This document shows, one piece after another, positions 1 to 21,429 of a stretch of 64,000 bases of DNA. The position numbers were made by a program, and so were the translations under genes. Each line of letters starts with the position of its first letter. Position 1 is the stretch's first letter. The notes under the pieces were generated by a model that searched no databases, was not told the DNA's origin, and saw only the letters and a program-made list of their open reading frames with translations. The stretch lies in assembly GCF_055900595.2 (NCBI RefSeq), contig NZ_CM148325.1, one strand, 5' to 3'.

Positions 1-1
1 T

Positions 2-670
2 GCGGAAGTCTCGGATATAAAAAAACACCCGCGACTTGAGGACGTCAATAAGGGGTGGCTGCAGGATATCAGGGACCAGGCCCCGCAACGCGTCATGAAA
101 GACGTGATGCTGACTGCGCGCAATATGGACAATTCGGTGGCATACACAGGCAGATACGCCAATCCCGATGCACTGGTCCAGGATGCACGCTCATCCCTGC
201 TTGATGAATGGCACAAGGACGCAGACGACCTCGTTGTCATCATGGGGCGAAACCTCTTTAACTCCCTGCGCCTGCCGGTCCTGAACAGTATCAGCATGCA
301 GAATGCGAATGCCGAACTGCTTGCCGGACAGCTCATTGTGTCAACGCGGACCATTGGCGGCCTTGATGTGTACCTTGCGCCATTTTTCCCGGCTCAGTCA
401 ATGCTCATCACCTCATTCAGCAACCTGTCGGTTTACTGGCAGAAGGGGTCCATGCGTCGTCTCATGAAGGATGAGCCCGAATACAACCGTATCGCCATCT
501 ATCAGTCCGTTAACGACTGCTATGTGGTTGAGGACCATGGTAAGTGCGCACTGATTGAGAATATCAGCTTTGCCACATATGACCATGACGCGCCGGACTG
601 GTACCGGGAGGGCATAAAAGCACTGTCAGCGCAGGCTGAAGACAAGGATGCAGGGGAAGAGGAGGATTAA
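2..670 (+). CDS. Phage major capsid protein, C-terminal portion (P2 gpN-like); 5' end lies outside the window
   Basis: Reading frame is open from position 2; sits immediately upstream of a gpM-like terminase subunit as in the P2 N-M-L order; acidic C-terminal tail. Confidence 0.55.
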   Translation, partial: AEVSDIKKHPRLEDVNKGWLQDIRDQAPQRVMKDVMLTARNMDNSVAYTGRYANPDALVQDARSSLLDEWHKDADDLVVIMGRNLFNSLRLPVLNSISMQNANAELLAGQLIVSTRTIGGLDVYLAPFFPAQSMLITSFSNLSVYWQKGSMRRLMKDEPEYNRIAIYQSVNDCYVVEDHGKCALIENISFATYDHDAPDWYREGIKALSAQAEDKDAGEEED

Positions 671-672
671 CC

Positions 673-1449
673 ATGCTGACACCGGCACAGGCTCATTTCC
701 AGCACGTGATGGCTTTACGGGCAGGAACGGCAGCAGAAAACGAGGATATCGTGGCCCGCACGGCTCATGAGCAGGTCCTTCACCGTCTGCGCCTGGCACA
801 GCAACGCATAAAGGGCGTCCAGGCAAAAGCGGCAAAGGCCGCGCTCAAGCGTGAAATGCTGCCGGGTTTTGCAGGCTGGATAGACGGCACGCTGGAAGCC
901 GACGGCGGACAGCAGGATGAGGTGATAGCCACACTCATGGTGTGGGCCGTGGACTGTGGCGACCTGGCGCTTGCACTGCGCATCGGGGATTATGTGGTTC
1001 GCCACAACCTCACGATGCCTGACAACTTCGGGCGTACGGCAGCCACGGTACTGACCGAGGAAATCTGCAACCCTGTTCTGACACAGGCCGGAACGGATGC
1101 ACACGCCGATTTGTCCGGCTACATCGAACCGCTGGACACCCTCTGGCAAATTGTCGCGAACCGGGACATGCCCGATGAGGTCCGCGCCAAGCTGTGCAAG
1201 GCATGCGCCTTTGCCCGTCGTGGCCTGACCGATGCCGACAGCATGGCGGTGAGTCTGAAGCTGTTCCGTGAGGCAATGCACCTTAACCCGAATGCGGGGG
1301 TAAAACGTGAGATTGCCACGCTTTCACGGGCCCTGAAAAAGGCCGGACAGGATGAAGCCGCTGCCGCACAGGAGCCTGCGGCACAGAAAGATACAACCAG
1401 AGAACAGACCACGACGCCGAAGGCGAAAGCGAAGGCGAAACGTGGTTAA
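673..1449 (+). CDS. Phage terminase endonuclease (small) subunit, P2 gpM-like
   Basis: 258-aa ORF; size and position between capsid and head-completion genes match P2 gpM (about 247 aa). Confidence 0.65.
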   Translation: MLTPAQAHFQHVMALRAGTAAENEDIVARTAHEQVLHRLRLAQQRIKGVQAKAAKAALKREMLPGFAGWIDGTLEADGGQQDEVIATLMVWAVDCGDLALALRIGDYVVRHNLTMPDNFGRTAATVLTEEICNPVLTQAGTDAHADLSGYIEPLDTLWQIVANRDMPDEVRAKLCKACAFARRGLTDADSMAVSLKLFREAMHLNPNAGVKREIATLSRALKKAGQDEAAAAQEPAAQKDTTREQTTTPKAKAKAKRG

Positions 1450-1550
1450 CGGCTGACCCCGTCAGAAGGCGGCGTGCCGGGCGTTCCGGTTACGGTTTTC
1501 CGTTCCCCTTACACCCGGCACCCACCGCTTTTTTTCTGAAGGAGCGATTT

Positions 1551-2045
1551 ATGAGCATGGTCGCAAGACCGGAAGCCGCCCCTGCACGGGACGATATCCC
1601 CGACACCGACGACGGCGACGCCACCATCACCGCCGGGGCATTCTGGCCGGAGATTGTGCTGCGGGAGCTGCGCCTTGCAGTACGCCTGCCGGGCCGCATC
1701 ACCTCCACACGTCTGGCGCACGTTGCCACGGGAGCCGTGGCTCACGTCACGCGGGAGCTGGAAGAGTGGCAGAAGGCGCAGTCTGCCGCAGGGTTCAGCA
1801 TCCTCGCAGAAGTGCCTGCCGCCACCATCAACGGTGAGAGCGTCAACGTATGGCATTACCGCAACGCCGTCTACAGCGCCACCCGCGCCCTGATTCTGGA
1901 ACGCTGGCGGGATGTGGACACCACTGATAAAGGGGACCGCCGGGCTGACGCACTGGATGAGCAGATGGAAGACTTATGGCGCGATGTGCGCTGGTCCGTG
2001 GCAGATATTCTGGGTCGCCCCCGTCTTTTTGCGGAGCTGGTGTGA
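1551..2045 (+). CDS. Head completion/stabilisation protein, P2 gpL-like
   Basis: 164-aa ORF (P2 gpL about 169 aa); stop overlaps start of the next gene (ATGA at 2043-2047). Confidence 0.65.
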   Translation: MSMVARPEAAPARDDIPDTDDGDATITAGAFWPEIVLRELRLAVRLPGRITSTRLAHVATGAVAHVTRELEEWQKAQSAAGFSILAEVPAATINGESVNVWHYRNAVYSATRALILERWRDVDTTDKGDRRADALDEQMEDLWRDVRWSVADILGRPRLFAELV

Positions 2046-2242
2046 TGAAAGTGAGGGCACTCCAGGGGGATACCGTCGATTTACTCTGTTTCCGGCACTA
2101 CGGCACCACGCAGGGGGTGACCGCACAGGTACTTGATGCCAATCCAGGGCTCTGCCGCCAGGTAATTCTGGAAGCGGGACAGGAGGTGGAGATGCCGGAG
2201 CCGGAAAGGAAACAGCAACGCGAAAAGGTAAAGCTATGGTGA
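2045..2242 (+). CDS. Small tail protein, P2 gpX-like
   Basis: Internal ATG at 2045 of the 1976..2242 ORF gives a 65-aa product starting MKVRALQGDTVD, resembling P2 gpX (about 67 aa). Confidence 0.6.
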   Translation: MKVRALQGDTVDLLCFRHYGTTQGVTAQVLDANPGLCRQVILEAGQEVEMPEPERKQQREKVKLW

Positions 2243-2526
2243 CGGGATTTTTTCAGCGCGTCAGTGACTGGATCACCTTCTGGGCGTCAGTGACGGCAAC
2301 AACCATTGGTGTTATGACCATCAGCGAAAAAATTGCGCTGGCCGGGCTGCTTCTGGGGTCACTTTCCGCCATCCATGCCTGGTGCCACCGCAGGCGTACG
2401 GAGCAGGCAATGAAGCGCCGCAATGACCTTATCGCCCGCATCCTGGCACGTTCAGAAAACCGCGAGCTTCACGACGGTGAGAGACGGGCACTGGACAGCG
2501 TGAGACAGGACGGAGAAGAGCGGTGA
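2236..2526 (+). CDS. Holin (two predicted transmembrane segments, basic C-terminus)
   Basis: 96-aa ORF with hydrophobic stretches followed by a charged tail; directly upstream of the endolysin. Confidence 0.55.
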   Translation: MVTGFFQRVSDWITFWASVTATTIGVMTISEKIALAGLLLGSLSAIHAWCHRRRTEQAMKRRNDLIARILARSENRELHDGERRALDSVRQDGEER

Positions 2527-3068
2527 AACTGCCGGTAAAACGTTATGCGGTGGCGGCCATTGTGGCGCTGGGCGTCTCCATGGCACCCGGTGAACTGAGA
2601 ACCTCACGGGAAGCACAGATAAAAATCGCCACCCGGGAAGAGTGCCGGGCGACACCGTACCGTGATATTGCAGGAGTAATGACCGTGGGATGTGGTTCAA
2701 CAGGGGGCGTGGAGAACCGGGTTTACGGAGAAAAGGAGGTGGCCCGCCGCTGGGTGAATGACCTGCGGCACGCGGAAAACTGTATCAACCAGAACTTCAG
2801 CGGTGCCGCCATGCCCCAGTCCGCCTTTGAGGCGATGACCGACGCGGCGTTCAACGTCGGCTGTACCGGCCTGATGTGGTACCGGGACAGGAGCGGCAAC
2901 CGGCAGCGCACCACCATCTGGAAGCACGCACAGGCGCACCGCTGGGTGGCGATGTGCGGGAGACTGACCGATTTTGTCAACAGTGGCGGACGCCGCTCAC
3001 AGGGGCTGGTTAACCGCCGGGAGGAGTTCAGACAGTGGTGTCTTCGCGACACGGGAGGCAGCACATGA
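2523..3068 (+). CDS. SAR (signal-anchor-release) endolysin, T4-lysozyme-like (GH24)
   Basis: N-terminal weakly hydrophobic Ala/Gly/Val-rich segment (AVAAIVALGVSMAPG), then an E-x8-D-x5-T spacing (EECRATPYRDIAGVMT); resembles the phage 21 R / P1 Lyz class. Confidence 0.7.
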   Translation: MKLPVKRYAVAAIVALGVSMAPGELRTSREAQIKIATREECRATPYRDIAGVMTVGCGSTGGVENRVYGEKEVARRWVNDLRHAENCINQNFSGAAMPQSAFEAMTDAAFNVGCTGLMWYRDRSGNRQRTTIWKHAQAHRWVAMCGRLTDFVNSGGRRSQGLVNRREEFRQWCLRDTGGST

Positions 3069-3472
3069 GACCGGTTTACGCCGTGATTGTTGCCCTCATG
3101 GTGACCACCCTGACGGCGGCGGCCATGTGGCAGTCATACCGGCTGGGGCGTGCCGGTGAGGCACGTGACGCCGCAGAGCAGCAGCTGGGCGAATACAGCC
3201 GGGCGCTGCGTGAGTCCTCCGCCGTTATCAGCGATGCCTCCGCCGTACTGCATGAGGTGATGACGCAGCGACAGAAAAGGGCACAGGAAGGAGAAGTCAG
3301 ACGTGAACAGCTTCGCGAAATTGCTGCGACGGATGAGTGCGCCGGCACTCTTCCTGACCACCGTTTTACTGACCGGCTGCGCGAACACACGGAACGCGCC
3401 ACTGCCCGCGCCCTCCTTCCGGTTCATTCCGGCGGGACTGACGACGGGAACACGGCCCCCGCCCTTCCCTGA
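3065..3472 (+). CDS. i-spanin (Rz / LysB-like)
   Basis: ATG at 3065 overlaps the endolysin stop; N-terminal TM segment followed by a charged, coiled-coil-like periplasmic domain. Confidence 0.55.
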   Translation: MRPVYAVIVALMVTTLTAAAMWQSYRLGRAGEARDAAEQQLGEYSRALRESSAVISDASAVLHEVMTQRQKRAQEGEVRREQLREIAATDECAGTLPDHRFTDRLREHTERATARALLPVHSGGTDDGNTAPALP

Positions 3473-3617
3473 ACACCCCACCTGGGGAAATATCGGGATA
3501 TGGAGCGACAGCCTCCTGGATGCACTGGAAACCTGCAACGCAGACAAACGGGCCATTGAGGCGATGGAGCGCCGGAGACTCAACCGACAGAACGGAGAGG
3601 CGCATGCTGAAAAGTAA
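3303..3617 (+). CDS. o-spanin lipoprotein (Rz1 / LysC-like), overlapping the i-spanin out of frame
   Basis: Lipobox LLTGC after a signal-like segment, proline-rich mature region; starts inside the Rz-like gene in another frame and runs past its stop. Confidence 0.5.
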   Translation: MNSFAKLLRRMSAPALFLTTVLLTGCANTRNAPLPAPSFRFIPAGLTTGTRPPPFPEHPTWGNIGIWSDSLLDALETCNADKRAIEAMERRRLNRQNGEAHAEK

Positions 3618-4068
3618 ATCCCTGAGCACACACATGAGTACAGCGTGCCGGTGGTGCAGGGCCAACCCGGAAAAGTTCACCGTGTTCATTGAACGTGGCG
3701 GGATAGAGACCACCGGCGAGACGCCGACGTTCGTGTACAACTACCGGCTGGTGATGTTCGTGATGGACTACACGGGCGATCTGGACAACCTGACGCTTCC
3801 ACTGATTGTCTGGCTGGCAGAGAACCAGCCGCAGTTGCTGCTTAATCCTGAGCGCAACAACGATATTCAGTTCACGGCGGCCATTAACGACGACGACAGC
3901 GCGGACGTGCTGTTTGAGCTGCCGTTACGTGAACGCGTGCGCGTCACCCGCAGGGATGACGGCACCCTCATGACAGAACATCTACCGGAGCCGAAATCAC
4001 GCATCCCGCAGGACGGCGACTGGTCACACATTCTGGAGGATGTGACGTGGAACATTGTCACCGGATAA
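3604..4068 (+). CDS. Tail completion protein, P2 gpR-like
   Basis: ATG at 3604 gives 154 aa (P2 gpR about 155 aa); position after the lysis cassette matches P2. Confidence 0.6.
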   Translation: MLKSKSLSTHMSTACRWCRANPEKFTVFIERGGIETTGETPTFVYNYRLVMFVMDYTGDLDNLTLPLIVWLAENQPQLLLNPERNNDIQFTAAINDDDSADVLFELPLRERVRVTRRDDGTLMTEHLPEPKSRIPQDGDWSHILEDVTWNIVTG

Positions 4069-4083
4069 CACGCGGAGAATGTT

Positions 4084-4740
4084 ATGGGGAAACTGAGATA
4101 CCGTAACCTCGTTCCCGCTGAAGGAATGAGTAACATGTTTGTCAATATCCGGCTGGCAACCAGCCCGCAGGCAGTGAAGCGCATTGCCGCGCATGTGGGT
4201 AAGGAGCTGCGGCGCGTGAACCAGAGCCGGATGCGCGCCCAGAAAGCGCCGGACGGTTCGGTGTGGACACGCCGTAAACGCCGTATATCACGCCTTCAGG
4301 AGCGCATCAGCTTTATCTGGCAAAACCAGAACCGCACCCTGAAAAACTGGCATCACGGTTCAGGAAAATACGGCCAGACCATCACCGGCTGGGATGAAGA
4401 CCGGAGCGGCATACGTACCTTTTACCGGAGTGATATCCTCCGTTTCCTTGAAATCAGGACACGCCGCATCAACCGTGACACCACAAAAACGGTGCCGATG
4501 TTTGCGAAGCTGCGCACGGCCCGTTATCTGAAAGTGAAGGCGGACGCATCAGGCGTGACGGTGGGCTACAGCGGCGTGGCGGCACGCATTGCCCGCGTTC
4601 ACCAGTTCGGGGAGCGCGACCGGGTGGCCGCAGGGATGTATACGGATTATCCGGCCCGTGAACTTCTTGGAATAACACCGGCAGATGAACGACTTATTCA
4701 GCGTATCATTATGGACAATATCGCGAGGGCTGTGGCATGA
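4084..4740 (+). CDS. Tail completion / virion morphogenesis protein, P2 gpS-like (longer than P2 gpS)
   Basis: 218-aa ORF between R-like and V-like genes; start codon uncertain. Confidence 0.55.
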   Translation: MGKLRYRNLVPAEGMSNMFVNIRLATSPQAVKRIAAHVGKELRRVNQSRMRAQKAPDGSVWTRRKRRISRLQERISFIWQNQNRTLKNWHHGSGKYGQTITGWDEDRSGIRTFYRSDILRFLEIRTRRINRDTTKTVPMFAKLRTARYLKVKADASGVTVGYSGVAARIARVHQFGERDRVAAGMYTDYPARELLGITPADERLIQRIIMDNIARAVA

Positions 4741-5318
4741 ACGCGGAATTAATGCGCCTTATCAGCAACATCATCAGAACCGGCGTGATTTTCGACGTGA
4801 ACCCGCAGACCTGGGAGGTCCGGGTGCGCAGTGGCGGACTGGAGACAGGCTGGCTTCGCTGGAGCACCGCGCGGGCGGGCGCGTTCAGTGTCTGGGTGCC
4901 GCCAGCCACCGGTGAACAGGTGGCGTTCGTCTGTATCGGTGGTAATCCCGAAACCGCGATAATCATCGGCAGCCTCTGGAGCGATGATATCCCGGCACCG
5001 GGCAGCACACTGAAGGAAATCATCATGACAGCACCGGACGGTGCGGTATTCCGCTACGATGCAGACGCCGGTGCACTGGAGGTTAAGGGGATTAAAACAG
5101 CCAGCATTCAGGCCGACACGCGCATCACCCTGGACACGTCGGAGGTGGTGTGTACCCGCAAACTTATCACCGCCACCCTGGAGGTGCAGAACGGCGGCGA
5201 GATGCGCGGCAGCATATCCCACAGCGGCGGCAGCCTGACATCCAACGGTATCACCGTTCATACGCACACCCACGGTGGCGTCAGGACGGGCCCGGGCACC
5301 ACGGGAGGCCCGCAATGA
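4737..5318 (+). CDS. Baseplate assembly / spike protein, P2 gpV-like
   Basis: 193-aa ORF with Gly-rich C-terminus (HTHTHGGVRTGPGTTGGPQ); overlaps neighbours by 4 nt on each side. Confidence 0.7.
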   Translation: MNAELMRLISNIIRTGVIFDVNPQTWEVRVRSGGLETGWLRWSTARAGAFSVWVPPATGEQVAFVCIGGNPETAIIIGSLWSDDIPAPGSTLKEIIMTAPDGAVFRYDADAGALEVKGIKTASIQADTRITLDTSEVVCTRKLITATLEVQNGGEMRGSISHSGGSLTSNGITVHTHTHGGVRTGPGTTGGPQ

Positions 5319-5665
5319 CCGCTGTTTACAGGGGGATGAACCCGCAGGGAACCGGCACGCTGAGCGACAGCGAACACCTGAAAAACAGCGTGCGGGATAT
5401 CCTGACCACACCGCCAGGCAGCCGGGTGATGCGCCGCGAATACGGCAGCCTGTTACCGGACCTCATCGACGAGCCCATGAACGACACCACGCGTTTACAG
5501 TGCATGAGCGCCACGGTGACTGCGCTGGCGCGCCATGAACCCCGTATAGCACTGCAGAACGTCGATGTGAACTGGCGGGCTGGCGGACGCGCCGTGGTGA
5601 CGTTATCCGGCATCATCACCGAAACCATGCAGAACATCACATTCAGTATCACCCTGAGGGAGTAA
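5315..5665 (+). CDS. Baseplate wedge protein, P2 gpW-like (gp25-like)
   Basis: ATG at 5315 overlapping the V-like stop; 116 aa (P2 gpW 115 aa). Confidence 0.7.
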   Translation: MTAVYRGMNPQGTGTLSDSEHLKNSVRDILTTPPGSRVMRREYGSLLPDLIDEPMNDTTRLQCMSATVTALARHEPRIALQNVDVNWRAGGRAVVTLSGIITETMQNITFSITLRE

Positions 5666-5668
5666 ATC

Positions 5669-6565
5669 ATGCCTTCCGTTGACCTGTCACAGTTACCGGA
5701 ACCGGCCATCATCGCGCAGCCGGATTTTGAGTCCATCCTGGCAGACATTAAAACCATGATGGTGAGCTCCTTCCCGGAAGAATACCGCGCCGCCGTCACC
5801 CGTGCCCTTACTCTGGAATCCGAGCCATTGAACATCATTTCCCAGGCCATGGCCTTTCGTGAAATGCTGCTTCGCCAGCGCATCAATGAAGCCGCCCGCG
5901 CCTGCATGCTCAGCCTCAGCCGGGGCAGTGACCTGGACAATCTGGCCGCCAACAACAACACCCGCCGCCTGGTCATTCATCCGGCCACTGATACCACGGA
6001 AGCAGTGATGGAAAGCGACACATCGCTGCGTCTGCGTGCCCAGTCAGCCTGGGACGGCCTGAGTGTGGCCGGACCGTCCGGCGCGTATGAGTATTTTGCC
6101 CGGAGCGCAAGCGGTCTTGTCCGTGATGCGCGCGCCATCAGCCCGTCACCGGCCACAGTCACCGTCTCCATCCTGTCAGCAGACGGTGACGGCACCGCCG
6201 GTGAGGCGTTACTGAACACGGTGCGCACCGCCCTGAATGCCGAGAACGTGCGCCCGGTTGCCGACCGCCTGACTGTGCAGAGTGCTACCATCGTGAACTG
6301 GGTAATGGAAGCGAAGCTGTATTTTTATCCAGGGCCGGAGTCTGAACCCATGCTTGCGGCCGCTGACGCCGCTTTCCGTGCATGGCTGGCAGACCAGGGC
6401 CGTATCGGTCAGGACGTGGCCCTGTCAGCCATCACTGCAGCGCTGCATGTTCACGGTGTCCAGCGCGTTGAGGTCATAAAACCCACGCAGAACATCACCA
6501 TCAGTGACACTCAGGCAGCCAGATGTACCACATTCAGCATCAGCGAAGGAGGACGCAATGAGTGA
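5669..6565 (+). CDS. Baseplate assembly protein, P2 gpJ-like
   Basis: 298 aa (P2 gpJ about 302 aa), conserved position. Confidence 0.7.
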   Translation: MPSVDLSQLPEPAIIAQPDFESILADIKTMMVSSFPEEYRAAVTRALTLESEPLNIISQAMAFREMLLRQRINEAARACMLSLSRGSDLDNLAANNNTRRLVIHPATDTTEAVMESDTSLRLRAQSAWDGLSVAGPSGAYEYFARSASGLVRDARAISPSPATVTVSILSADGDGTAGEALLNTVRTALNAENVRPVADRLTVQSATIVNWVMEAKLYFYPGPESEPMLAAADAAFRAWLADQGRIGQDVALSAITAALHVHGVQRVEVIKPTQNITISDTQAARCTTFSISEGGRNE

Positions 6566-7121
6566 CAGGAAAAAAACAGACAGCGCACAGCACAGTACAT
6601 CACTGCTTCCACCGTCCGCAGGGCCATTCATGCGCGCCACAGAGGCGACAGGAGTACGCATCAGTACCATACCGGTGGACGCCGACACCCTGTGGTCGCC
6701 GGACCGCTGCCCTGCTCACCTCCTGCCCTACCTTGCATGGGCATGTTCCGTTGACTGCTGGGACCGCAACTGGCCGGAAGAGACCAGGCGACAGGTGATT
6801 CGGGACGCATGGATGATACATCGCCACAAAGGGACCATCAGTGCACTCCGCCGCATCGTTGAACCACTGGGCTACCTCATCCGTGTATCAGAATGGTGGG
6901 AGTTTGACGGCTCGCCCGGGACCTTCACCATTGAGATTGGCACACTTGAAACCGGAGTAAGTGAAGAGCTGCATGAAGAAATGGAGCGTCTGATTGCCGA
7001 TGCGCGCCCCGTCAGCCGCCACCTCGTGGGGCTTAGTATCATCCAGGAAATACACGGTGCCATTTACGACGCTGCCGCAGGTTACGACGGCGACATCATC
7101 ACCATTTACCCGGAAGACTGA
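6558..7121 (+). CDS. Baseplate/tail protein, P2 gpI-like
   Basis: ATG at 6558 overlaps the J-like stop by 8 nt; 187 aa. Confidence 0.65.
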   Translation: MSDRKKTDSAQHSTSLLPPSAGPFMRATEATGVRISTIPVDADTLWSPDRCPAHLLPYLAWACSVDCWDRNWPEETRRQVIRDAWMIHRHKGTISALRRIVEPLGYLIRVSEWWEFDGSPGTFTIEIGTLETGVSEELHEEMERLIADARPVSRHLVGLSIIQEIHGAIYDAAAGYDGDIITIYPED

Positions 7122-7124
7122 ACC

Positions 7125-9970: not shown

Positions 9971-10040
9971 GCGGGGAAAAGGAACGGGCATTCATAAATA
10001 ATTCATCATGCAGGTGCCGCAAGAATGCGGCACATTACCT

Positions 10041-10529: not shown

Positions 10530-10540
10530 GCGAGGTACTC

Positions 10541-13500
10541 CTAATCTCTGTCACGGAAACTACCGACTGTCTGGCGGATACGGCGTTCCATTTCCGCACG
10601 GACGGCATCACCCACCATTTTTGCCAGTTCGCGCGGGTTTTGCGTGTGAACATCATGCAGGTGAATATGCAGTTCGCCAGTTAATCCCCATGGTGCCGGC
10701 TCACTCTGGCGCGGTCGGGGCGATGCGGGGGATATGGGCTGGCGCACAGCCTCAACCACCGGACGGGATGTTGCCGCCATCACTGGTGTCATTAGCGGGG
10801 AGAACGTCGGCATGACATCGTGAGTCATAACCGGTTTGATCACCGGCGGAACCACTGGCGTAATATTACCGGACAGTACCGGACGGACGACCGGAGGAAT
10901 AACCGGCACATTATTCACGGACACCACCGGCTTCACGACCGGCGACACGTTCGCCGTGGTGGATATCAGCGGCGAAACACTGACAGGCGGTGGCGCTGGC
11001 AGCGGTGGCAACGAAGGCACACTGACCGACGGCACCTGCGGCAGTCTGACAGGTGGCTCACTGACACTACCCGGTAACAGGGAAGCTGCTCGGTTAAAGC
11101 GTTCCTCCTTCCACTCACCACGAACGGCCAGCGCTTCCGGCAGGTTTTTAAAGATAATATCGCCGGGACCAGCGCGTTTTTTCGCCTGTTTCGCCTCATC
11201 CAGCAGACCACCGGTGTTATCGACGATTTTGTTCAGGCGGCGCATAGTGCCGGTATTCTCCCCCGTCAGGGGTGGTTGCCCCCCTTTGGGTTTTTCGCCG
11301 TCTTTTTTATCCTCGTCCTTTTTCGGCGGATTAATGACGTTAACATCCGCCAGAAGCATGGCAGCTTTCTCGTTCAGCAACTCCTTCTGTTTTAGTTCTT
11401 CCGCCTTTTTCCGGGCGCGCTCAACCGCCGACGGAATCAGCCCGAGTTTTTCCAGCACCCGGGTTAATGAGTCAATCAGCAGCGTAACCGGACCGGTCAC
11501 CAGATTGCTGATAAACTCCCCGACCTTCTGCCCGAACGTACGCCCGGCTTCCGTGCACTTGTCCAGCTCATCCTTTGTTGTGCTTACCGGCGCGAACAAA
11601 TCCACGAACCACTGCCACACACGCCCGATTGTCTGCCCGACATACTCAAACAGCGGTCCCAGTGGTGCCACAGCCTCGCGCAGTGGCGTAAGCCCCTGCC
11701 ACAGGCCGGACAAGAACCCGCCCACGACAGCCTTCAGCTGGTCCCAGTGCCGCCAGATAAGCACTGCCGCACCGACCAGTGTCGCCACCACAAGGCCCAC
11801 CGGACTTAACAGAAAACCCAGCGCCCCGCCAAGTGCGCCCACCGCACCACTCACCATCCCCCACAGTGCGGGCAGACCTGACAGTCTGAGCGCCAGTATT
11901 CCGATACCGCGCCCCAGTGAAATCAGTGCGCCGCCAGGTGAAGTGAACGCAGCCAGCAGACCACCACGCAGCGCGCCAAGTCCCGCCTGCACACCACGAA
12001 GCCGCCCCGCAACTACGCCCAGCAGTGCAGCAAACCGTCCGGCACCGGAGGTGATACCGACAAACAGCACGCGCCAGCCACCGATACCGCCCAGCGGACC
12101 ACCGAGTACGCCGCGCAGCTGCGTCAGTAACGGCAGCGCACGACCGAGGCCGGATGTGCCGGTCAGCAGGGCAAACCCAAGACGCAGTTTTGCCAGCGGC
12201 CCCATCAACACACCAGTGGCAAGTGACAGCGCCCCCATGGCCGCAACCGCAGCCAGCAGTACACCACCGGCAATCAGCAGTTGTTTTGTCAGTTCAGGGT
12301 GCGCCTGAGCCAGCGCGGTGACTTTCGCAATAACCCGGGTGAACGACTGCGTGACAGAACGCAGCGGCCCGTCAACGAGGTCAGCGACACGGATACGCAG
12401 TCCTTCCCATGCGCTGTTCAGTGATTTCAGGTCACCGTCCAGGTTATCAGCCATAACACGGGCAGTGTGATTAAGTTCCCCGGTGGCCAGTTCAATCTCC
12501 TGCGTAAGACGGGGAAGATTATTTTCCCCCGCCGCAGTGACAAGATTCATCAGGGAAACATAGGACTCCTGCCCGGCAATAGCCCTGAAAAAGGAGACCT
12601 GCGCGGCATTACCGTATTTTCGGGTGGCCTGGTACAGCTCATTCAGGATATTTTCCATCCGGCGCATGTTCCCGTAAGCATCCTGCGTCTCCACGCCAAG
12701 CTCTTTCAGTGCCATTGCAGCGGCCTTCGGCGGATCAACCAGACGTGACAGACTGGCACGCAGCGCCGTACCTGCATCACTTCCACGGATCCCCACACTG
12801 CCAAGGACACCCGTCATGGCTGCCGCCTGTTCAAGGGACAGGCCAAGTGAAGCTGCAACCGGACCCGTGTACTTCATGGTTTCACCCAGCGAACGGAGAT
12901 CCGTATTGGTTCGTGTGAAGGTGGCGGCCAGCGTGTCACCCACGCGATCCATCTGGTCAGCGGACAGACCAAACTGTGTGAGGATATTCGAACTGATATC
13001 GGCAGTCTGTCCCAGGTCCATCCCTGCAGCCATTGCCAGATCAAGCACGCCGGGTAGCGCCGCCTGTATGGCCTGTGGTGTGAAGCCGGCCATGGCAAGG
13101 AACGCCTGACCGCTGGCAGCATCACCGGCGGTAAACTGCGTTTCAGAGCCCAGCTTAATGGCCTGTTCGCGCAGCGCCTTAAACTGCGGACTGTTTTTGT
13201 CAATACGGGTCAGCGCCTGGACGCGCGACATCTCCTTACCAAAACTGACCGCCGGTTGCAGGAAACGTCCGGCCGCATAGCCGCCTGCCGCCGCCGTACC
13301 AACCGCCGTAAGTCCGACCGTTTTAAGTTTTCCCGCCGTCTCCTGAGCACGGGAATATTGCTGGCGTGCCTGCGTGACACGTGCCAGCGCCTGCCGTTCG
13401 CGTTCCAGCTGGTCGTTGTATTGCTGTGTTCGCCGTATGGCCTGTTGAATGGTGTTGTCACTGCCGGAAAGCGCAATACCGTGGCGCCGCAGCTCACCAC

Positions 13501-13888
13501 CCAGTTCGCGCATTCGCTGAACTTCACGCGCACGGACCTCATTGAGACGCTCAAGTTTGAGGCTCAAATCGTTCATCAGCTTTTTCTGTTTGTCAGACAG
13601 CACGGTTCCGGCGCGCTGAATTTGCTGAAGTGCGCTTAACTGGCGTTGCGCCCTGACAATGCCGTTTCCGGCCTTGTTTGCAGCCTCGCGGGCGCGATCA
13701 AATGAACGGGCGTGGCGTTCCAGGTTTTTGATCGCACCCTGCGTTCTCTGTATGGAGTCGCCAAGCTGGCCCATCATGCGACGGGCGTTTTCGGTGGGAC
13801 GGGTCAGCCTGTCAACAGCGCTGAAGGCGACCCGTATATCAAGCGTTTTCATGCTCTGCGTTCCCGCTGCGAAGGGCCGCCCGCTCAC
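10541..13888 (-). CDS. Tail tape measure protein, P2 gpT-like
   Basis: 1115-aa ORF; coiled-coil N-terminal region, Gly/Ala-rich hydrophobic centre, Pro/Val-rich C-terminal part; track start is GTG at 13888, an in-frame ATG also lies at 13852. Confidence 0.8.
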   Translation of the reverse strand: MSGRPFAAGTQSMKTLDIRVAFSAVDRLTRPTENARRMMGQLGDSIQRTQGAIKNLERHARSFDRAREAANKAGNGIVRAQRQLSALQQIQRAGTVLSDKQKKLMNDLSLKLERLNEVRAREVQRMRELGGELRRHGIALSGSDNTIQQAIRRTQQYNDQLERERQALARVTQARQQYSRAQETAGKLKTVGLTAVGTAAAGGYAAGRFLQPAVSFGKEMSRVQALTRIDKNSPQFKALREQAIKLGSETQFTAGDAASGQAFLAMAGFTPQAIQAALPGVLDLAMAAGMDLGQTADISSNILTQFGLSADQMDRVGDTLAATFTRTNTDLRSLGETMKYTGPVAASLGLSLEQAAAMTGVLGSVGIRGSDAGTALRASLSRLVDPPKAAAMALKELGVETQDAYGNMRRMENILNELYQATRKYGNAAQVSFFRAIAGQESYVSLMNLVTAAGENNLPRLTQEIELATGELNHTARVMADNLDGDLKSLNSAWEGLRIRVADLVDGPLRSVTQSFTRVIAKVTALAQAHPELTKQLLIAGGVLLAAVAAMGALSLATGVLMGPLAKLRLGFALLTGTSGLGRALPLLTQLRGVLGGPLGGIGGWRVLFVGITSGAGRFAALLGVVAGRLRGVQAGLGALRGGLLAAFTSPGGALISLGRGIGILALRLSGLPALWGMVSGAVGALGGALGFLLSPVGLVVATLVGAAVLIWRHWDQLKAVVGGFLSGLWQGLTPLREAVAPLGPLFEYVGQTIGRVWQWFVDLFAPVSTTKDELDKCTEAGRTFGQKVGEFISNLVTGPVTLLIDSLTRVLEKLGLIPSAVERARKKAEELKQKELLNEKAAMLLADVNVINPPKKDEDKKDGEKPKGGQPPLTGENTGTMRRLNKIVDNTGGLLDEAKQAKKRAGPGDIIFKNLPEALAVRGEWKEERFNRAASLLPGSVSEPPVRLPQVPSVSVPSLPPLPAPPPVSVSPLISTTANVSPVVKPVVSVNNVPVIPPVVRPVLSGNITPVVPPVIKPVMTHDVMPTFSPLMTPVMAATSRPVVEAVRQPISPASPRPRQSEPAPWGLTGELHIHLHDVHTQNPRELAKMVGDAVRAEMERRIRQTVGSFRDRD

Positions 13889-14365
13889 GCCAGGCGACCA
13901 CCTCGCCGGGATCCATCAGGAAGATTTCAGCGGGAGACCAGTTGAAAATAACGGCGATATCCGCCACAAAGTCTTCAATGTGCTCAAAGGGCACGACGGT
14001 TATCAGCCTGCCGTCGCCGCCCCACTCTTCCCGCCAGAGTCCTGACCGGCCAAAAAATTAACCGCCACCCCGCACAGCTGAATAAAATCAGCGGACCCCA
14101 TGCGCTTAAGCAGAACCTCGTCCAGTCGCGGCGAAGTGACGCGCGGGAGTAACTCAAACATCGCGTCCGTTTTCATGTTCAGCACGTCAAGCAGTGACAG
14201 CCCGCGCAGTGAACCGGCCTGCTGTACAGCAGGCGTGATTTCCACATACGTGATTTTTTTGTTACCGAGCACAAGGGGCGTTTTCAGCGTCACGCCGCGC
14301 TCACTGGTCACGTCCGCCGCATCAGCACCGTCAGTAACAGGGGCAACAACCGGATTTTCTTTCAT
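13839..14365 (-). CDS. Putative E+E' fusion made by programmed -1 ribosomal frameshift
   Basis: TTTTTTG on the coding strand at 14051-14057; the -1 frame stays open for about 70 codons and stops at TGA 13839-13841, just inside the tape measure 5' end. Confidence 0.45.
14003..14365 (-). CDS. Tail assembly chaperone, P2 gpE-like (zero-frame product)
   Basis: 120-aa ORF between the tube gene and tape measure gene; contains the slippery heptamer near its 3' end. Confidence 0.6.
   Translation of the reverse strand: MKENPVVAPVTDGADAADVTSERGVTLKTPLVLGNKKITYVEITPAVQQAGSLRGLSLLDVLNMKTDAMFELLPRVTSPRLDEVLLKRMGSADFIQLCGVAVNFLAGQDSGGKSGAATAG
14051..14057 (-). other. Slippery heptamer T_TTT_TTG (candidate -1 frameshift site)
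   Basis: Plus strand reads caaaaaa at 14051-14057; reverse complement is TTTTTTG in the E reading frame (AVNFLAGQ). Confidence 0.45.
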
Positions 14366-14415
14366 GCATAAAACCTCAAATCAGGGGGCGACGCCGCGCG
14401 CCGCCGTGGGAAACA

Positions 14416-14934
14416 TTAACCACCAAGACCAATCGCCGAGCGCACGCGGTCCGGGAAGACGTTTTTGCCGTCCTTGCGTTCGATGTGGTTCAGTAAATCA
14501 ATCTCCAGCACCGGACGGTCGTTAATGCTGAGTTTGTAGTAGGTACTCCTGACCGCATAGGTGTGAGACGTGACCTCACCCTGTTTTGCCTCCCCCGTAT
14601 CAATTTCCGTCACGCGGCCGCGAAGCTCAATTTCATACAGGTCGCTCTGCTCTTCATCGTTGTAGTACTCACCGACAAAGCGCAGCAGCGTACCGTCGAT
14701 CGTGCCGCCGTACTTAAGGAACAGTTCGCGGGTCGGCCCGCCCATGGTGAAACTCGCATCCAGCGCGCCGTCATCCAGACCAAGGTCGATATTCACCGCG
14801 CCGGCCATACCACCACCGCGATAGGCTTCCGTTTTACGGGTCAGTTTGGGGGGGGTGAAGCCGGTCACCCTGCCAATCTGGTTCACCCCGTCAGTAAACA
14901 GCGTGAACACCCTGAGATTTTTTGGTACGGCCAT
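14416..14934 (-). CDS. Tail tube protein, P2 gpFII-like
   Basis: 172 aa, same length as P2 FII; directly downstream of the sheath gene. Confidence 0.75.
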   Translation of the reverse strand: MAVPKNLRVFTLFTDGVNQIGRVTGFTPPKLTRKTEAYRGGGMAGAVNIDLGLDDGALDASFTMGGPTRELFLKYGGTIDGTLLRFVGEYYNDEEQSDLYEIELRGRVTEIDTGEAKQGEVTSHTYAVRSTYYKLSINDRPVLEIDLLNHIERKDGKNVFPDRVRSAIGLGG

Positions 14935-16124
14935 TAAGCACCTCCAAGCGTCGCAAATGCAGGACCAAAGAATTCATCAGTAAACGTCTGGTAAAGTTCC
15001 ATATCCTCAAGCGGCGGAACGGGCGTGTACTTGTAGCGGATACGCACGCGTCCCTGACGAAGTTCCGTGGTGCTGTTATCCACCACGTCATACCAGCACT
15101 CCGCACCAATGAGACGTCCTGACGTAACCAGCGCATCCAGTTTTGCGCGAATTGCGCTTAACACGTCTTTCACATTAGCAGGGGTCAGCGGGGCATCAAT
15201 CGTTTCAAACTGCGCTTCCGCAATGGAATCAGCCAGCACCTGAGCGGTTCGCGTGTACACCTCAAAGAGATACGCCTTCGTTTCCGGCGTACGGTTGCCC
15301 CAGAAGCGGAAACCGTTACGGCAAATGATGGTAGTGATTTCCTTGTTGTTGAGATTGTTGGCATCGCTGTCTTCGGACTGAAGGGACCAGAACACCGGGC
15401 TGGAAATACCCAGCACATTTCTTACCGGCACGTTGGACAGCGATTTATGCCAGCCCTGTTCGTGGTCAATACGTGCACGTAAACCGCAGGCGTACGCCGC
15501 AGCCGGGAAGACCTCATTAGCGCCGGATTTCGGGTTATGGGCGATGAAGTCCGGCCAGACCAGCATAAGTTCGCGCTCGTTAAATCTGGCGCGGTAGCTG
15601 ATTGCATCGGCGGGCTTCTTGCAGTTGTGACAGCCCGCGTAGACAAATGCGCGAAGTTTTTCTGCAATTACACACAGGGATTTTGTGACAGCTTCAGTAT
15701 CCAGTCCGGGAGCTGCGATGATGCGCGGACGGTAACCGATGGCATCATCCTGTTCAGCTATCAGAAGTGCATACATGCCGGTATAGTTTCCGTCATCATC
15801 AGAACCACCGATAACGAGTTTGTCCTGGGTTTGTCCTGAATGCGTCTCTTCCTTAAATTCAGGAACGCGCACCACAATCACCTTCGTGCTCACCTGGTCG
15901 GCGACAGCCTTAAGCGATTTGTAAAGCGTCCCCTTTGTGCCGGCCTTACCCAGCACATCACTGACGCGGGTCAGCAGTGTGGGTTTGTTCAGCGGGAACA
16001 GAGTTTCATCCGCGTCATCTGCCGTAGCCACAATACCAATAACACTGGAATCCACATCATTAATGGCGGTGGCAAGGCCGGTACTTTCCCTTACGCGCGC
16101 ACCATGAAAGCGTGTTTCACTCAT
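14934..16124 (-). CDS. Contractile tail sheath protein, P2 gpFI-like
   Basis: Internal ATG at 16124 (MSETRFHGARV...) gives 396 aa, same length as P2 FI; conserved motifs such as RNGFRFWGNRT. Confidence 0.8.
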   Translation of the reverse strand: MSETRFHGARVRESTGLATAINDVDSSVIGIVATADDADETLFPLNKPTLLTRVSDVLGKAGTKGTLYKSLKAVADQVSTKVIVVRVPEFKEETHSGQTQDKLVIGGSDDDGNYTGMYALLIAEQDDAIGYRPRIIAAPGLDTEAVTKSLCVIAEKLRAFVYAGCHNCKKPADAISYRARFNERELMLVWPDFIAHNPKSGANEVFPAAAYACGLRARIDHEQGWHKSLSNVPVRNVLGISSPVFWSLQSEDSDANNLNNKEITTIICRNGFRFWGNRTPETKAYLFEVYTRTAQVLADSIAEAQFETIDAPLTPANVKDVLSAIRAKLDALVTSGRLIGAECWYDVVDNSTTELRQGRVRIRYKYTPVPPLEDMELYQTFTDEFFGPAFATLGGA

Positions 16125-16200
16125 ATGTTTCACCCTTGTCTGGCTGGTTGATTTTGCGTAATCATTACCCACACACGCGGTAATCTCACCCCTTTGATGT

Positions 16201-16218
16201 TGTCTCCTGACAGCGACA
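16201..16218. promoter_or_regulatory. TGT-N12-ACA dyad, candidate Ogr/Delta-type late activator site between divergent FI and D
   Basis: tgtctcctgacagcgaca lies inside a longer palindrome (ttgttgtc...gacaacaa); about 77 bp from the FI start and about 68 bp from the D start. Confidence 0.4.
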
Positions 16219-16285
16219 ACAAAACAGCCATTCAACGCCGCTGCGGTGCATGAAACCATTACAGAACGCACCAGGAGAGAACACC

Positions 16286-17377
16286 ATGAAAGAGCTGTCA
16301 GTTACCGTTCCGTCACCGGATATCGACATCACCATCAACAACAACACACTGGCAAACCTCACAGAGCGACTCATGACGCTGACCCTGACGGATAACCGGG
16401 CCTTTGAGGCAGACCGCGTCACCCTCACCCTTGACGATACGGACGGGCAGTTACAGTTGCCACCACGTGGCGCACGCCTGAGAGTGATGATTGGCTGGCG
16501 AGGAGAATCACTGGTTAACAAGGGCACCTACGTCGTTGATGAGGTTGCGTGGGAAGGACCTCCAGATAAACTGATCATCACCGCCAGCAGCGCAGATTTT
16601 CGGGAAGAGTTCAACGTGAGGCGGGAGGTATCCTGGCACGACGTGACCGTAAAACAGGTTGTGTCAGCCATCGCTCACCGCTACGGCCTGAAGACACAGA
16701 TAAGCGAAATCCTCATGGATATCGAAATTGACCACGCTGACCAGACCGAAGAGAGCGATATATCCTTCCTGACCCGCATGGCTGAAATGCTGGGTGCGAT
16801 TGCCACCGTAAAAAACGGCAGCCTGTTATTCATTCTGCCGGGTGGCGGAACCGGGCCGGACGGAAGAGCCCTGCCTTCGTTCGCCATTACCCGCAGCAGC
16901 GGCGACAGTCACCGCTTTCGCATTGCTGACCGTGATGCGTATACGGGGGTCCGGGCGCACTGGCTCGATCTGAAGTTCGGGCAAAAGAAAAAAGTGAACG
17001 TGAAGCGACGCAGGGAAGCCGGGAAACAGAAACAGGAGAAGAGCAGCAGCCGGGAGGGTGATTACATGGAAGGCGCGGAAGGGAACGTCTACGTTCTGCG
17101 CAGGACTTACCAGAATGAAGAAACCGCACGACGTGCAGCTGCGGCAAAGTGGCAGGAGTTACAGCGGGGAGCAGCGGCATTCTCCATCACTCTGGCACGG
17201 GGTCGTGCCGACCTGTATCCCGAAATGCACGGCAGGGTAACAGGTTTTAAAAGCGAGGTGGACAATCAGGACTGGATTATTGCCAGGGTGGAGCACATCA
17301 TAGATGAAAGCGGCTTCACCACACAACTGGAGCTGGAAGCGAAAATCCCCGAATGGATAGCAGATTCAGGCGGATAA
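16286..17377 (+). CDS. Tail protein D (late control gene D family), P2 gpD-like
   Basis: ATG at 16286 preceded by aggagag; 363 aa with gpD-type motifs (LTLTDNR.FEAD, FSITLARGRADLYPE). Confidence 0.7.
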   Translation: MKELSVTVPSPDIDITINNNTLANLTERLMTLTLTDNRAFEADRVTLTLDDTDGQLQLPPRGARLRVMIGWRGESLVNKGTYVVDEVAWEGPPDKLIITASSADFREEFNVRREVSWHDVTVKQVVSAIAHRYGLKTQISEILMDIEIDHADQTEESDISFLTRMAEMLGAIATVKNGSLLFILPGGGTGPDGRALPSFAITRSSGDSHRFRIADRDAYTGVRAHWLDLKFGQKKKVNVKRRREAGKQKQEKSSSREGDYMEGAEGNVYVLRRTYQNEETARRAAAAKWQELQRGAAAFSITLARGRADLYPEMHGRVTGFKSEVDNQDWIIARVEHIIDESGFTTQLELEAKIPEWIADSGG

Positions 17378-17420
17378 AATTAAAATGAGCCATCTCCACT
17401 CAGCCAGATAAGGAGAAGCC

Positions 17421-17672
17421 ATGTTCCGTTGTCCCCTATGCGGTGCATCCGCACGTATCCGCACCAGTCGCAATGAAAATGATTCAGGCACAGTTCGCCT
17501 GAAGTACTACCAGTGCAATAACCTCGAATGCGGGATCGGCTTTACCACACTGGAGGGTTTTAACAAATTCACATCAAAACGCGCCCCGTCGCCGCAGGGT
17601 ACAGAGCGGATACCGTGGGAAGATTTTCCGGGATCTCACAGGGGGAATACTCAGATTAATCTTGATATTTAA
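17421..17672 (+). CDS. ogr: Ogr/Delta-family zinc-finger late transcription activator
   Basis: 83 aa; N-terminus MFRCPLCGASARIRTSR...YYQCNNLEC carries the four-Cys Ogr signature; last gene of the P2-type late region. Confidence 0.7.
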   Translation: MFRCPLCGASARIRTSRNENDSGTVRLKYYQCNNLECGIGFTTLEGFNKFTSKRAPSPQGTERIPWEDFPGSHRGNTQINLDI

Positions 17673-17790
17673 GAACAATAATCAGGTTGAGAGGACATCA
17701 TAAGGCAAGTAGATTAACGGCAGATACTTTCCCGCAACCACGGGCAAGTATTTAATTATCCATGATGAAATATGACCTAAATTGTTTTTT

Positions 17791-17816
17791 GCCCGCCGGA
17801 AAGCGGGCATTTTTTT
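17791..17816 (+). terminator. Intrinsic terminator (GC hairpin plus T7), first of a recurring family in the array
   Basis: gcccgccggaaagcgggc then attttttt; T-run only on the plus-strand side. Confidence 0.55.
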
Positions 17817-21410: not shown

Positions 21411-21429
21411 GATTCAGAAAAATTGGGTA

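What the first reader, a model, noticed from the sequence alone, without database searches (positions are those of the whole stretch)
1..17700. P2-family prophage late region ends at ogr with no integrase in the window
Gene content and order from the capsid C-terminus to ogr match P2 closely, so the right prophage end should lie just after 17672. On the P2 map int, the immunity genes and the replication genes lie beyond the att site on the other side of the circular map, which in the prophage is beyond the left edge of this window. The prophage may therefore be complete, but that cannot be judged here. By eye the prophage looks more GC-rich than the flanking core; I did not compute this.
Basis: partly seen in the sequence, partly recalled or inferred. 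Interest (0 to 1): 0.35.

Follow-up and report, generated by a model that had tools for sequence, protein, structure and literature searches.

The report
P88-like prophage with accessory right end
This is the intact right half of an ordinary P2-family (P88-like) prophage sitting in the E. coli serS terminator, but it ends 3.7 kb beyond ogr, after an accessory block holding a hok/sok toxin-antitoxin locus and eight unexplained small-RNA-like units.

Summary
In detail: window 1-17672 is an uninterrupted P2-family late region, from the major capsid C-terminus to ogr. No integrase lies anywhere in the window. The late region is more GC-rich than the core (57.4% against 50.8%).

Two parts of the interpretation fail.
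- **Not a close match to P2.** Protein identity to P2 is 32-63%. The FI-FII-E-T-U block is inverted, as in phage P88 (60-85% identity).
- **The prophage does not end after ogr.** Comparison with empty sites places the attR core AAAAGCGCCCGCAGG at 21387-21401, inside the serS terminator.

The intervening 3.7 kb (44% GC) occurs only in genomes that carry this phage. It holds one intact hok/sok locus and one decayed copy. It also holds three copies of a ~690-bp module containing eight promoter-plus-terminator units of about 80-100 nt that match no Rfam family, and a conserved small gene next to attR.

About 21 complete E. coli genomes carry a 99-100% identical prophage at the same site with integrase, repressor, cox, replication, portal and terminase genes upstream. 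The window's closest core relatives have an empty site. The prophage is therefore probably complete and recently acquired, though the window cannot prove this.

Ordinary overall; the RNA-like array is a modest open lead.

The parts
1..670 (+). Major capsid protein N, C-terminal 222 aa (gene starts left of the window)
   Evidence: PF05125 Phage_cap_P2, E=6.5e-62, profile positions 145-327. The full 1140-nt gene is present in relatives.
673..2242 (+). Terminase small subunit M (673-1449), head completion L (1551-2045), tail protein X (2045-2242)
   Evidence: PF05944, PF05926 and PF05489. 75-77% aa identity to P88, 36-48% to P2.
2236..3617 (+). Lysis cassette: holin (2236-2526), lysozyme (2580-3068), Rz-like spanin (3065-3472), embedded Rz1/LysC (about 3354-3617)
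   Evidence: phrog_1350 holin, PF00959, phrog_214 Rz-like spanin. LysC comes from the RefSeq annotation of relatives.
3604..9970 (+). Tail completion, baseplate and fibre genes: R, S, V, W, J, I, H (7125-9359), G (9359-9970)
   Evidence: PF06891, PF05069, PF04717/PF18715, PF04965, PF04865, PF09684, PF03406/PF12571/PF07484, PF02413.
10041..16124 (-). Inverted tail block: U (10041-10529), tape measure T (10541-13852, 1103 aa), E/E+E' (13839-14365, slippery T_TTT_TTG at 14057-14051), tube FII (14416-14934), sheath FI (14934-16124)
   Evidence: PF06995, PF10145, PF06528, phrog_103, PF04985, PF04984. Frameshift heptamer read. T is intact and 55-60% identical to P88 T. P88 has the same orientation; P2 has the opposite one.
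16198..16221 (.). Perfect dyad TGTTGTC-N10-GACAACA (contains TGT-N12-ACA) in the divergent FI/D intergenic region; inferred shared Ogr activator site
   Evidence: Sequence. The spacing to the FI start (85 nt) resembles P2 pF (83 nt), and the shared pP/pO site is annotated in the P2 record. This is an inference and was not tested.
16286..17672 (+). Baseplate hub D (16286-17377) and late activator ogr (17421-17672)
   Evidence: PF05954 and PF04606 Ogr_Delta, E=4.9e-14. The CPLC-X24-C-X4-C cysteines are visible in the translation.
17685..18482 (.). Accessory module copy 1: unit U1 (17685-17816, +), orf71 (17815-18030, -), 18-bp palindrome ATGAAATTATAATTTCAT (18125-18142), unit V1 (18165-18281, +), unit U2 (18349-18482, +)
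   Evidence: Repeat families and self-BLAST. Invariant TTGAGA-17-TAGATT promoters and terminators. RNA folds. orf71 matches phrog_14142, unknown function. Model R1 finds exactly these units.
18562..18962 (+). hok/sok locus 1, intact; Hok ORF 18708-18848, overlapping mok-like ORF 18608-18841, terminator 18935-18962
   Evidence: PF01848 at 29 bits (cutoff 22); phrog_251 E=8.5e-22. Rfam sok RF01794 at 46.2 bits, E about 1e-7, below the gathering score of 59. Terminator.
19128..20502 (.). Module copies 2 (19128-19653, truncated orf71; V2 19337-19453; U3 19521-19652) and 3 (19622-20301; V3 19985-20103; U4 20170-20301), plus extra unit U5 (20367-20502)
   Evidence: 80-82% identical to copy 1. Tandem 197-nt repeat. 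Model R1 hits with E from 1e-21 to 1e-31.
20567..20944 (+). hok/sok locus 2, decayed: the hok start codon ATG is ATA and a premature stop follows
   Evidence: Rfam sok at 42.8 bits. 80% identical to locus 1. Sequence read.
21004..21231 (-). orf75, a small conserved phage gene next to attR
   Evidence: 85% aa identity to the gene next to attR of a related prophage at the copA site. No Pfam, PHROG or PADLOC hit.
21387..21401 (+). attR core AAAAGCGCCCGCAGG, the 5' half of the serS terminator hairpin; true right end of the prophage
   Evidence: Three-way alignment of the empty site, attL and attR. Empty sites in E. coli B and strain 100117. The only exact copy in the window.

Best explanation
The window holds the right 21.4 kb of a temperate phage of about 37 kb. 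It belongs to the family Peduoviridae and is laid out like phage P88. It is integrated by site-specific recombination into the terminator hairpin of serS, between dmsA and serS.

The phage carries its own copy of the 15-bp core, so the serS terminator is rebuilt at attR (21387-21401).

Late genes N to G run rightward. The FI-FII-E-T-U block runs leftward from a divergent region shared with D. That region contains an Ogr-type dyad. ogr closes the late region.

Between ogr and attR the phage carries 3.7 kb of AT-richer accessory DNA.
- One working hok/sok post-segregational killing locus and one decayed copy.
- Three recombined copies of a lineage-specific module with eight small promoter-to-terminator units. 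I infer these are small RNAs of unknown target.
- A small conserved gene beside attR.

Shown: gene identities, the att sites, the layout, GC content, distribution among genomes, and the repeat architecture. Inferred: use of the Ogr site, hok/sok function, expression of the RNA-like units, and the completeness of the prophage to the left of the window.
For: - **Gene identities.**
- **Layout.** Same as P88, with 60-85% aa identity, against 32-63% to P2.
- **att sites.** Defined by comparing attB, attL and attR.
- **Accessory block.** Present only in genomes with this phage (26 of 5426). It is bracketed by orf75, which is conserved next to attR in a relative integrated elsewhere.
- **Accessory slot in related phages.** Chuche, 500465-2 and P88 also carry hok plus variable cargo between ogr and att.
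- **Early half.** Present in 21 genomes at 98.9-100% identity.
- **Recent acquisition.** The window's core is 100% identical to strains with an empty site.
- **Integrity.** All late ORFs are intact, including T, which is disrupted in the two relatives compared base by base.
Against: - The left half of the prophage lies outside the window, so int, C, cox, A, cos, Q, P and O are not seen in the source strain.
- A few relatives carry IS insertions or a large internal deletion (F11, LR-31).
- No isolated phage in the phage collection covers more than 10% of the late region at the DNA level, so its ability to form particles is untested.
- The sok RNA matches fall below Rfam's gathering score.
- No target or expression evidence exists for the RNA-like units.
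Confidence: 0.88

Rival explanations
1. One reading: the prophage ends just after ogr at about 17672, and everything to the right is host core.
For: In P2 itself the attP core lies about 100 bp after ogr. GC falls sharply after 17672.
Against: - Positions 17673-21386 are absent from 5400 of 5426 E. coli genomes and occur only together with this phage.
- Empty sites join dmsA directly to the sequence starting at 21387.
- No att core copy lies near 17672.
Confidence: 0.02
2. The 3.7-kb block is a separate element, such as a satellite or the remnant of an earlier prophage, lying in tandem between the P2-family phage and serS. On this view it is not part of the phage genome.
For: - Its GC (44%) differs from that of the late region.
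- It holds decayed duplicates: hok2 and truncated orf71 copies.
- Module copy 3 is closer to the module of other phages (87%) than to copy 1 (81%).
- A metagenome contig at the same site has a different arrangement of copies.
Against: - No third att core separates the block from ogr, allowing up to 3 mismatches.
- Module copy 1 follows ogr directly in relatives integrated at the ihfA and copA sites.
- orf75 next to attR is likewise carried by those phages.
- The whole block is 99.9-100% conserved together with the phage across unrelated hosts.
- P88, Chuche and 500465-2 carry hok in the same slot.
Confidence: 0.07
3. The prophage is a defective head/tail remnant whose early half is missing or broken in the source strain.
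For: - The window cannot show the left half.
- Some relatives have an internal deletion (F11, LR-31) or IS21-family insertions.
- The tape measure gene is disrupted in the two relatives compared base by base, strain 135 and TUM9803, and is also annotated as a pseudogene in the two related prophages at the ihfA and copA sites.
Against: - Every late ORF in the window is intact, including T.
- The F11-type deletion removes 1-11583 of the window, so it is excluded here.
- About 21 of about 26 carriers keep at least 80% of the early half.
- The nearest core relatives have an empty site, which points to a recent arrival.
Confidence: 0.12

Closest known systems
Escherichia phage P88 (Peduoviridae, Xuanwuvirus; NC_026014)
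   Same: - The layout is the same, including the inverted FI-FII-E-T-U block, a divergent D gene, and ogr followed by hok before the att site (ogr is unannotated in the P88 record at 34476-34724).
- Late proteins are 60-85% identical.
- P88 was obtained by induction from a lysogen (abstract of PMC5285337).
   Different: - Only about 10% of the late region aligns at the DNA level, at about 77% identity.
- The holin and endolysin are of different types, and there is no invertible tail-fibre segment or invertase.
- T is 168 aa longer.
- P88 lacks the orf71/U/V module and has a single hok.
Bacteriophage P2 (Peduovirus; NC_001895)
   Same: - The set of late genes N through ogr is the same.
- The E/E' -1 frameshift heptamer T_TTT_TTG is present.
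- ogr encodes a zinc-finger activator, and a TGT-N12-ACA dyad lies upstream of the sheath gene.
   Different: - Protein identity is 32-63%.
- FI to U are inverted.
- There is no orf30, lysA or Z/fun.
- attP in P2 lies about 100 bp after ogr, whereas here it lies 3.7 kb away.
- The integration site differs.
Phages Chuche and 500465-2 (Gemsvirus): the accessory slot between ogr and att
   Same: ogr is followed by a hok (MokW-like) locus and then variable cargo before the att site.
   Different: Their cargo is com plus a DNA methyltransferase, or a zinc-ribbon protein plus TagO. Neither has U or V units.
Prophage-encoded Hfq-type small RNAs of pathogenic E. coli (e.g. AgvB, Rfam RF02702)
   Same: These are short units carried on a prophage. 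Each has its own promoter, a 5' hairpin, a single-stranded stretch, and a U-rich tract followed by a terminator with a long U tail.
   Different: The Rfam match to AgvB is only 17-23 bits against a gathering score of 56, driven by the terminator. There is no sequence relationship and no expression or target evidence.

Membership tests
P2-family phages (Peduoviridae) | P2-type major capsid, small terminase gpM and head completion gpL | tested here: met
   PF05125, PF05944 and PF05926, all far above their cutoffs.
P2-family phages (Peduoviridae) | Contractile tail and baseplate set R, S, V, W, J, I, H, G, FI, FII, E/E', T, U, D | tested here: met
   Pfam and PHROG hits for every gene. Frameshift heptamer.
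P2-family phages (Peduoviridae) | Ogr/Delta zinc-finger late activator | tested here: met
   PF04606 at 52 bits (cutoff 26.3).
P2-family phages (Peduoviridae) | Integrase, C repressor, Cox, replication protein A, portal Q and terminase P | not testable with these tools
   These genes lie outside the window. They are present in 99-100% identical prophages at the same site.
Close relative of P2 itself (genus Peduovirus) | P2 gene order (FI to D on one strand, attP next to ogr) and high sequence identity | tested here: not met
   The FI-U block is inverted, attR lies 3.7 kb from ogr, and protein identity is 32-63%.
Genus Xuanwuvirus (P88-like) | P88-type layout | tested here: met
   Gene orientations match, and hok follows ogr.
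Genus Xuanwuvirus (P88-like) | About 70% nucleotide identity over the genome. This is the usual genus criterion, stated from my own knowledge. | tested here: not met
   Megablast covers about 10% of the late region at about 77% identity.
hok/sok type I toxin-antitoxin | Hok/Gef toxin peptide | tested here: met
   Locus 1: PF01848 at 29 bits (cutoff 22) and phrog_251 E=8.5e-22. Locus 2 has lost its start codon.
hok/sok type I toxin-antitoxin | sok antisense RNA and hok mRNA leader structure | tested here: inconclusive
   RF01794 at 46.2 and 42.8 bits, against a gathering score of 59, with E about 1e-7.
Trans-acting bacterial small RNAs (U and V units) | Own promoter and intrinsic terminator bounding a 50-300 nt non-coding unit | tested here: met
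   - The -35 and -10 hexamers are invariant at 17-nt spacing.
- 17 terminator-like hairpins are found, against 4.9 expected.
- No conserved ORF is present.
Trans-acting bacterial small RNAs (U and V units) | Expression and a base-pairing target | not testable with these tools
   No transcript data are available. No significant complementarity was found to the phage genome, orf71 or hok.
Any Rfam family (U and V units) | Score at or above the gathering threshold | tested here: not met
   The best non-sok scores are 20-26 bits, against thresholds of 41-56.

The most novel reading that the evidence does not exclude
The region between ogr and attR encodes an undescribed, lineage-restricted family of eight paralogous phage small RNAs (five U and three V units). 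Each has its own conserved promoter, a 5' hairpin, a shared single-stranded UAUC(A/C)AU motif and an Hfq-type terminator. They are arranged around a small orphan gene with a palindromic operator and amplified by recombination between phages. The lysogen would use them to reprogram host genes or competing phages.
Probability: 0.35. Interest if true: 0.45.

Novelty: new member of a known kind. Interest (0 to 1): 0.25.

Why it matters
For genome annotation, this case shows that P88-like prophages cannot be delimited by the P2 rule that att follows ogr. Here the rule would misassign 3.7 kb of phage cargo to the host core, including a toxin-antitoxin locus.

The integration site is the serS terminator, and the phage rebuilds it. 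This explains how the insertion is tolerated next to an essential gene.

The slot between ogr and att emerges as a recombination hot spot. Across relatives it carries addiction modules (hok/sok or hicAB) and other cargo.

If the RNA-like units are expressed, they would add a new phage-borne regulatory RNA family. Otherwise the finding is a routine prophage.

Tried and rejected
- **Rfam scans.** A scan of 1-22000 and a laxer scan of 17600-21450 gave only the two sok matches. The rest were weak hits driven by terminators.
- **Targets for the U and V units.** Short-word BLAST against the full phage genome and the window gave nothing beyond chance; the best was 13 nt at E=0.08. Duplex energies against the orf71 and hok leaders did not differ from shuffled controls (a first attempt timed out).
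- **Covariance model of the units.** It found exactly the eight units in the window and four in a relative, and none in P88, Chuche, 500465-2 or P2. RNAalifold supported only the terminator stem. There are too few distinct sequences for a covariation test.
- **Collection scans.**
  - IMG/VR held three contigs.
  - The GTDB species representatives held none.
  - The metagenome scan used a pattern that was too loose.
- **orf71.**
  - Only E. coli near-copies were found, plus a few proteins of 57 to 133 aa whose C-terminus it matches.
  - It has no Pfam or PADLOC hit.
  - One homologue also sits at a prophage edge.
- **Tandem-element idea.** Rejected, because no extra att core is present.
- **The + strand ORFs 9967-10308 and 10836-12308.** These lie inside or overlapping U and T. 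The first has no family hits, and both are treated as spurious.
- **Literature searches.** None found a description of this module.
Full report
**What is at 1-17700**

ORF listing and profile searches identify an unbroken series of P2-family late genes.

| Gene | Coordinates | Strand |
|---|---|---|
| Major capsid N, C-terminal 222 aa | 1-670 | + |
| M | 673-1449 | + |
| L | 1551-2045 | + |
| X | 2045-2242 | + |
| Holin | 2236-2526 | + |
| Lysozyme | 2580-3068 | + |
| Rz-like spanin | 3065-3472 | + |
| R | 3604-4068 | + |
| S | 4126-4740 | + |
| V | 4737-5318 | + |
| W | 5315-5665 | + |
| J | 5669-6565 | + |
| I | 6558-7121 | + |
| H | 7125-9359 | + |
| G | 9359-9970 | + |
| U | 10041-10529 | - |
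| T | 10541-13852 | - |
| E and E' | 13839-14365 | - |
| FII | 14416-14934 | - |
| FI | 14934-16124 | - |
| D | 16286-17377 | + |
| ogr | 17421-17672 | + |

None of these ORFs contains a stop codon. The E/E' pair keeps the P2-type slippery heptamer T_TTT_TTG, in the correct phase, at 14057-14051 on the minus strand.

**How close it is to P2**

It is not close. Against the P2 reference, the proteins are 32-63% identical. The holin, lysozyme, Rz and G proteins have no BLASTP match.

In P2, FI, FII, E, T, U and D all lie on the same strand, and the attP core lies about 100 bp after ogr. Here FI to U are inverted relative to D.

Phage P88 (Xuanwuvirus) has exactly this inverted arrangement, and its late proteins are 60-85% identical to those in the window. 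At the DNA level, no phage record covers more than about 10% of the late region, at about 77% identity. This is therefore a P88-like member of the Peduoviridae with no isolated representative in that collection. Near-identical prophages are, however, already present in RefSeq E. coli genomes.

**The divergent FI/D region**

The 161-bp region between the FI and D start codons contains a perfect dyad, TGTTGTC-N10-GACAACA, at 16198-16221. The dyad includes TGT-N12-ACA.

Its centre lies 85 nt from the FI start codon. In P2, the annotated pF activator site lies 83 nt from the FI start. P2 also has one annotated activator site shared by the divergent pP and pO promoters. I infer that this dyad is an Ogr site serving both directions. 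This was not tested.

**Where the prophage really ends**

The window comes from an E. coli chromosome.

- A search with 17673-21429 shows that only the last 43 bases are present in essentially all 5426 complete genomes. The rest occurs in 26 genomes, all of which carry this phage.
- Empty sites in E. coli B, and in strain 100117, whose core is 100% identical to the window over 23 kb, join dmsA directly to serS.
- Aligning the empty site, the left junction of a lysogen (strain 135) and the window's right junction gives a 15-bp common core, AAAAGCGCCCGCAGG.
- In the window this core lies at 21387-21401 and has no other exact copy. No copy with up to three mismatches lies between ogr and that point.

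The core is the 5' half of the serS terminator hairpin, so the phage-borne copy restores the terminator at attR.

Measured from attL to attR in strain 135, the whole element is about 37.3 kb.

**No integrase, and GC**

Positions 21430-64000 are core genes: serS, rarA, lolA, ftsK, lrp, trxB, cydDC, aat, infA, tRNA-Ser, clpAS, cspD, macAB and onward to artM. None is an integrase.

| Region | GC |
|---|---|
| Late region, 1-17672 | 57.4% |
| Accessory block, 17673-21386 | 44.4% |
| Core, 21402-64000 | 50.8% |
| Core without the AT-rich islet | 51.9% |

The late region differs from the core on 1-kb windows at p=3.6e-7.

**Is the prophage complete?**

The window cannot show this. Indirect evidence favours completeness.

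- In strains 135 and TUM9803 (99.7-99.9% identical to the window), the DNA left of N holds O, P, Q, the replication endonuclease A, cox, an HTH repressor and the integrase next to dmsA.
- Twenty-one genomes keep at least 80% of that early half at 98.9-100% identity. A few carry IS21-family insertions. F11 and LR-31 have a deletion running from the early region to the middle of T. The window excludes that deletion, because its sequence is continuous from N onward.
- The tape measure gene is intact in the window (1103 aa). Strain 135 has a 10-bp deletion in it, and TUM9803 has substitutions and is annotated with an internal stop.
- The nearest core relatives lack the prophage, so this copy looks recent.

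I put completeness at about 0.85.

**The accessory block, 17673-21386**

The block is highly repetitive. It contains several kinds of element.

1. **A ~690-bp module, present three times.** Its complete form (17685-18482) consists of:
   - unit U1 on the + strand
   - a 71-codon gene on the - strand (orf71, 17815-18030)
   - a perfect 18-bp palindrome (18125-18142)
   - unit V1
   - unit U2

   Copy 2 (19128-19653) is truncated. Copy 3 (19622-20301) has a decayed orf71 and is followed by an extra unit, U5.
2. **Two hok/sok loci.**
   - Locus 1 (18562-18962) has an intact 46-aa Hok. It passes the Pfam cutoff (29 bits against 22) and matches PHROG 251 (E=8.5e-22).
   - Locus 2 (20567-20944) has ATA in place of the start codon, followed by a premature stop.
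   - Both match the Rfam sok model below its gathering score: 46 and 43 bits against 59, with E about 1e-7.
3. **orf75 (21004-21231, - strand).** A related prophage at the copA site encodes an 85% identical protein next to its own attR.
4. **A bidirectional hairpin** at 21282-21313.

**The U and V units**

The five U and three V units align over their full length. They share:

- a conserved TTG(A/T)GA -35 hexamer, 17-nt spacing and a TA(G/A)ATT -10 hexamer
- a 5' hairpin, whose sequence in U1 differs from that in U2-U5 while the shape is kept
- a single-stranded stretch with an invariant ATC-AT motif
- a U-rich tract followed by a GC-rich terminator and seven or more T residues

The region holds 17 terminator-like hairpins, against 4.9 ± 2.4 in shuffled sequence. 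The predicted transcripts are about 80-100 nt and contain no conserved ORF.

They match no Rfam family. The best scores are 20-26 bits against thresholds of 41-56. A covariance model built from them finds exactly eight units in the window and four in a relative. It finds none in P88, Chuche, 500465-2 or P2.

No convincing target was found in the phage genome, in the orf71 mRNA or in the hok mRNA.

The module occurs in 30 of 5426 complete E. coli genomes, in three IMG/VR contigs, in three metagenome contigs, and in no GTDB species representative.

orf71 matches only PHROG 14142 (unknown function). It corresponds to the C-terminal part of proteins of about 130 aa. One of these also lies at a prophage edge.

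**Is the block part of the phage?**

Yes, most likely.

- Related prophages integrated next to ihfA and copA have a single module directly after ogr. It is followed by hicAB or by nothing, and the copA-site prophage then has orf75 before attR.
- P88, Chuche and 500465-2 carry hok and other cargo in the same slot.
- A metagenome contig at the same serS site has a variant in which copies 1 and 2 are fused and hok1 is missing.

The array therefore looks like the product of recombination between module copies of related phages. The rival idea, that it is a tandem second element, has no extra att core to support it.

**Verdict**

This is an ordinary P2-family prophage of the P88 type. It is intact across the window and probably complete.

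The only feature that is not routine is the array of small promoter-to-terminator units in the accessory slot. These are structurally like small RNA genes, but there is no evidence yet for their expression or their targets.

Noticed in passing
window 57831-59615 (- strand): A 594-aa ORF with about 31% GC forms an AT-rich islet between ybjQ and ybjP. Its pentapeptide-repeat Pfam hits are weak and below cutoff, and it has no PADLOC hit. RefSeq relatives annotate it as hypothetical or as a pentapeptide repeat protein.
   Followed up: partly
window 16198-16221: A perfect dyad, TGTTGTC-N10-GACAACA (containing TGT-N12-ACA), lies midway between the divergent sheath and D genes. Its spacing resembles P2 late promoters, so it may be a shared Ogr site.
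   Followed up: partly
window 10541-13852; L003 and L001: The tape measure gene is intact here. In strain 135 it carries a 10-bp deletion (window 10998-11007). In TUM9803 it has seven substitutions and is annotated with an internal stop. It is also annotated as a pseudogene in related prophages at other sites.
   Followed up: partly
L005 (phage P88) 34476-34724: The P88 record has an unannotated ogr homologue between D and hok, 71% identical at the protein level to the window's ogr.
   Followed up: yes
window 18125-18142, with imperfect copies near 19298 and 19946: An 18-bp perfect palindrome, ATGAAATTATAATTTCAT, lies between orf71 and the divergent V1 unit and looks like an operator. The protein that would bind it is unknown.
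   Followed up: no
L001 43476-47001 (strain TUM9803, after clpS): A satellite-like element (primase, SSB, PerC, ProQ/FinO, small terminase) lies beyond clpS in that strain. It is absent from the window, where cspD and macB follow clpS.
   Followed up: no
window 10836-12308 (+ strand): A 490-codon ORF lies antisense to the tape measure gene. It is probably a by-product of the GC-rich, Gly/Ala/Leu-rich coding strand, and it was not searched against any family.
   Followed up: no
window 36250-36337: A tRNA-Ser(GGA) gene lies here. In relatives the adjacent sequence is annotated as an RtT sRNA.
   Followed up: no
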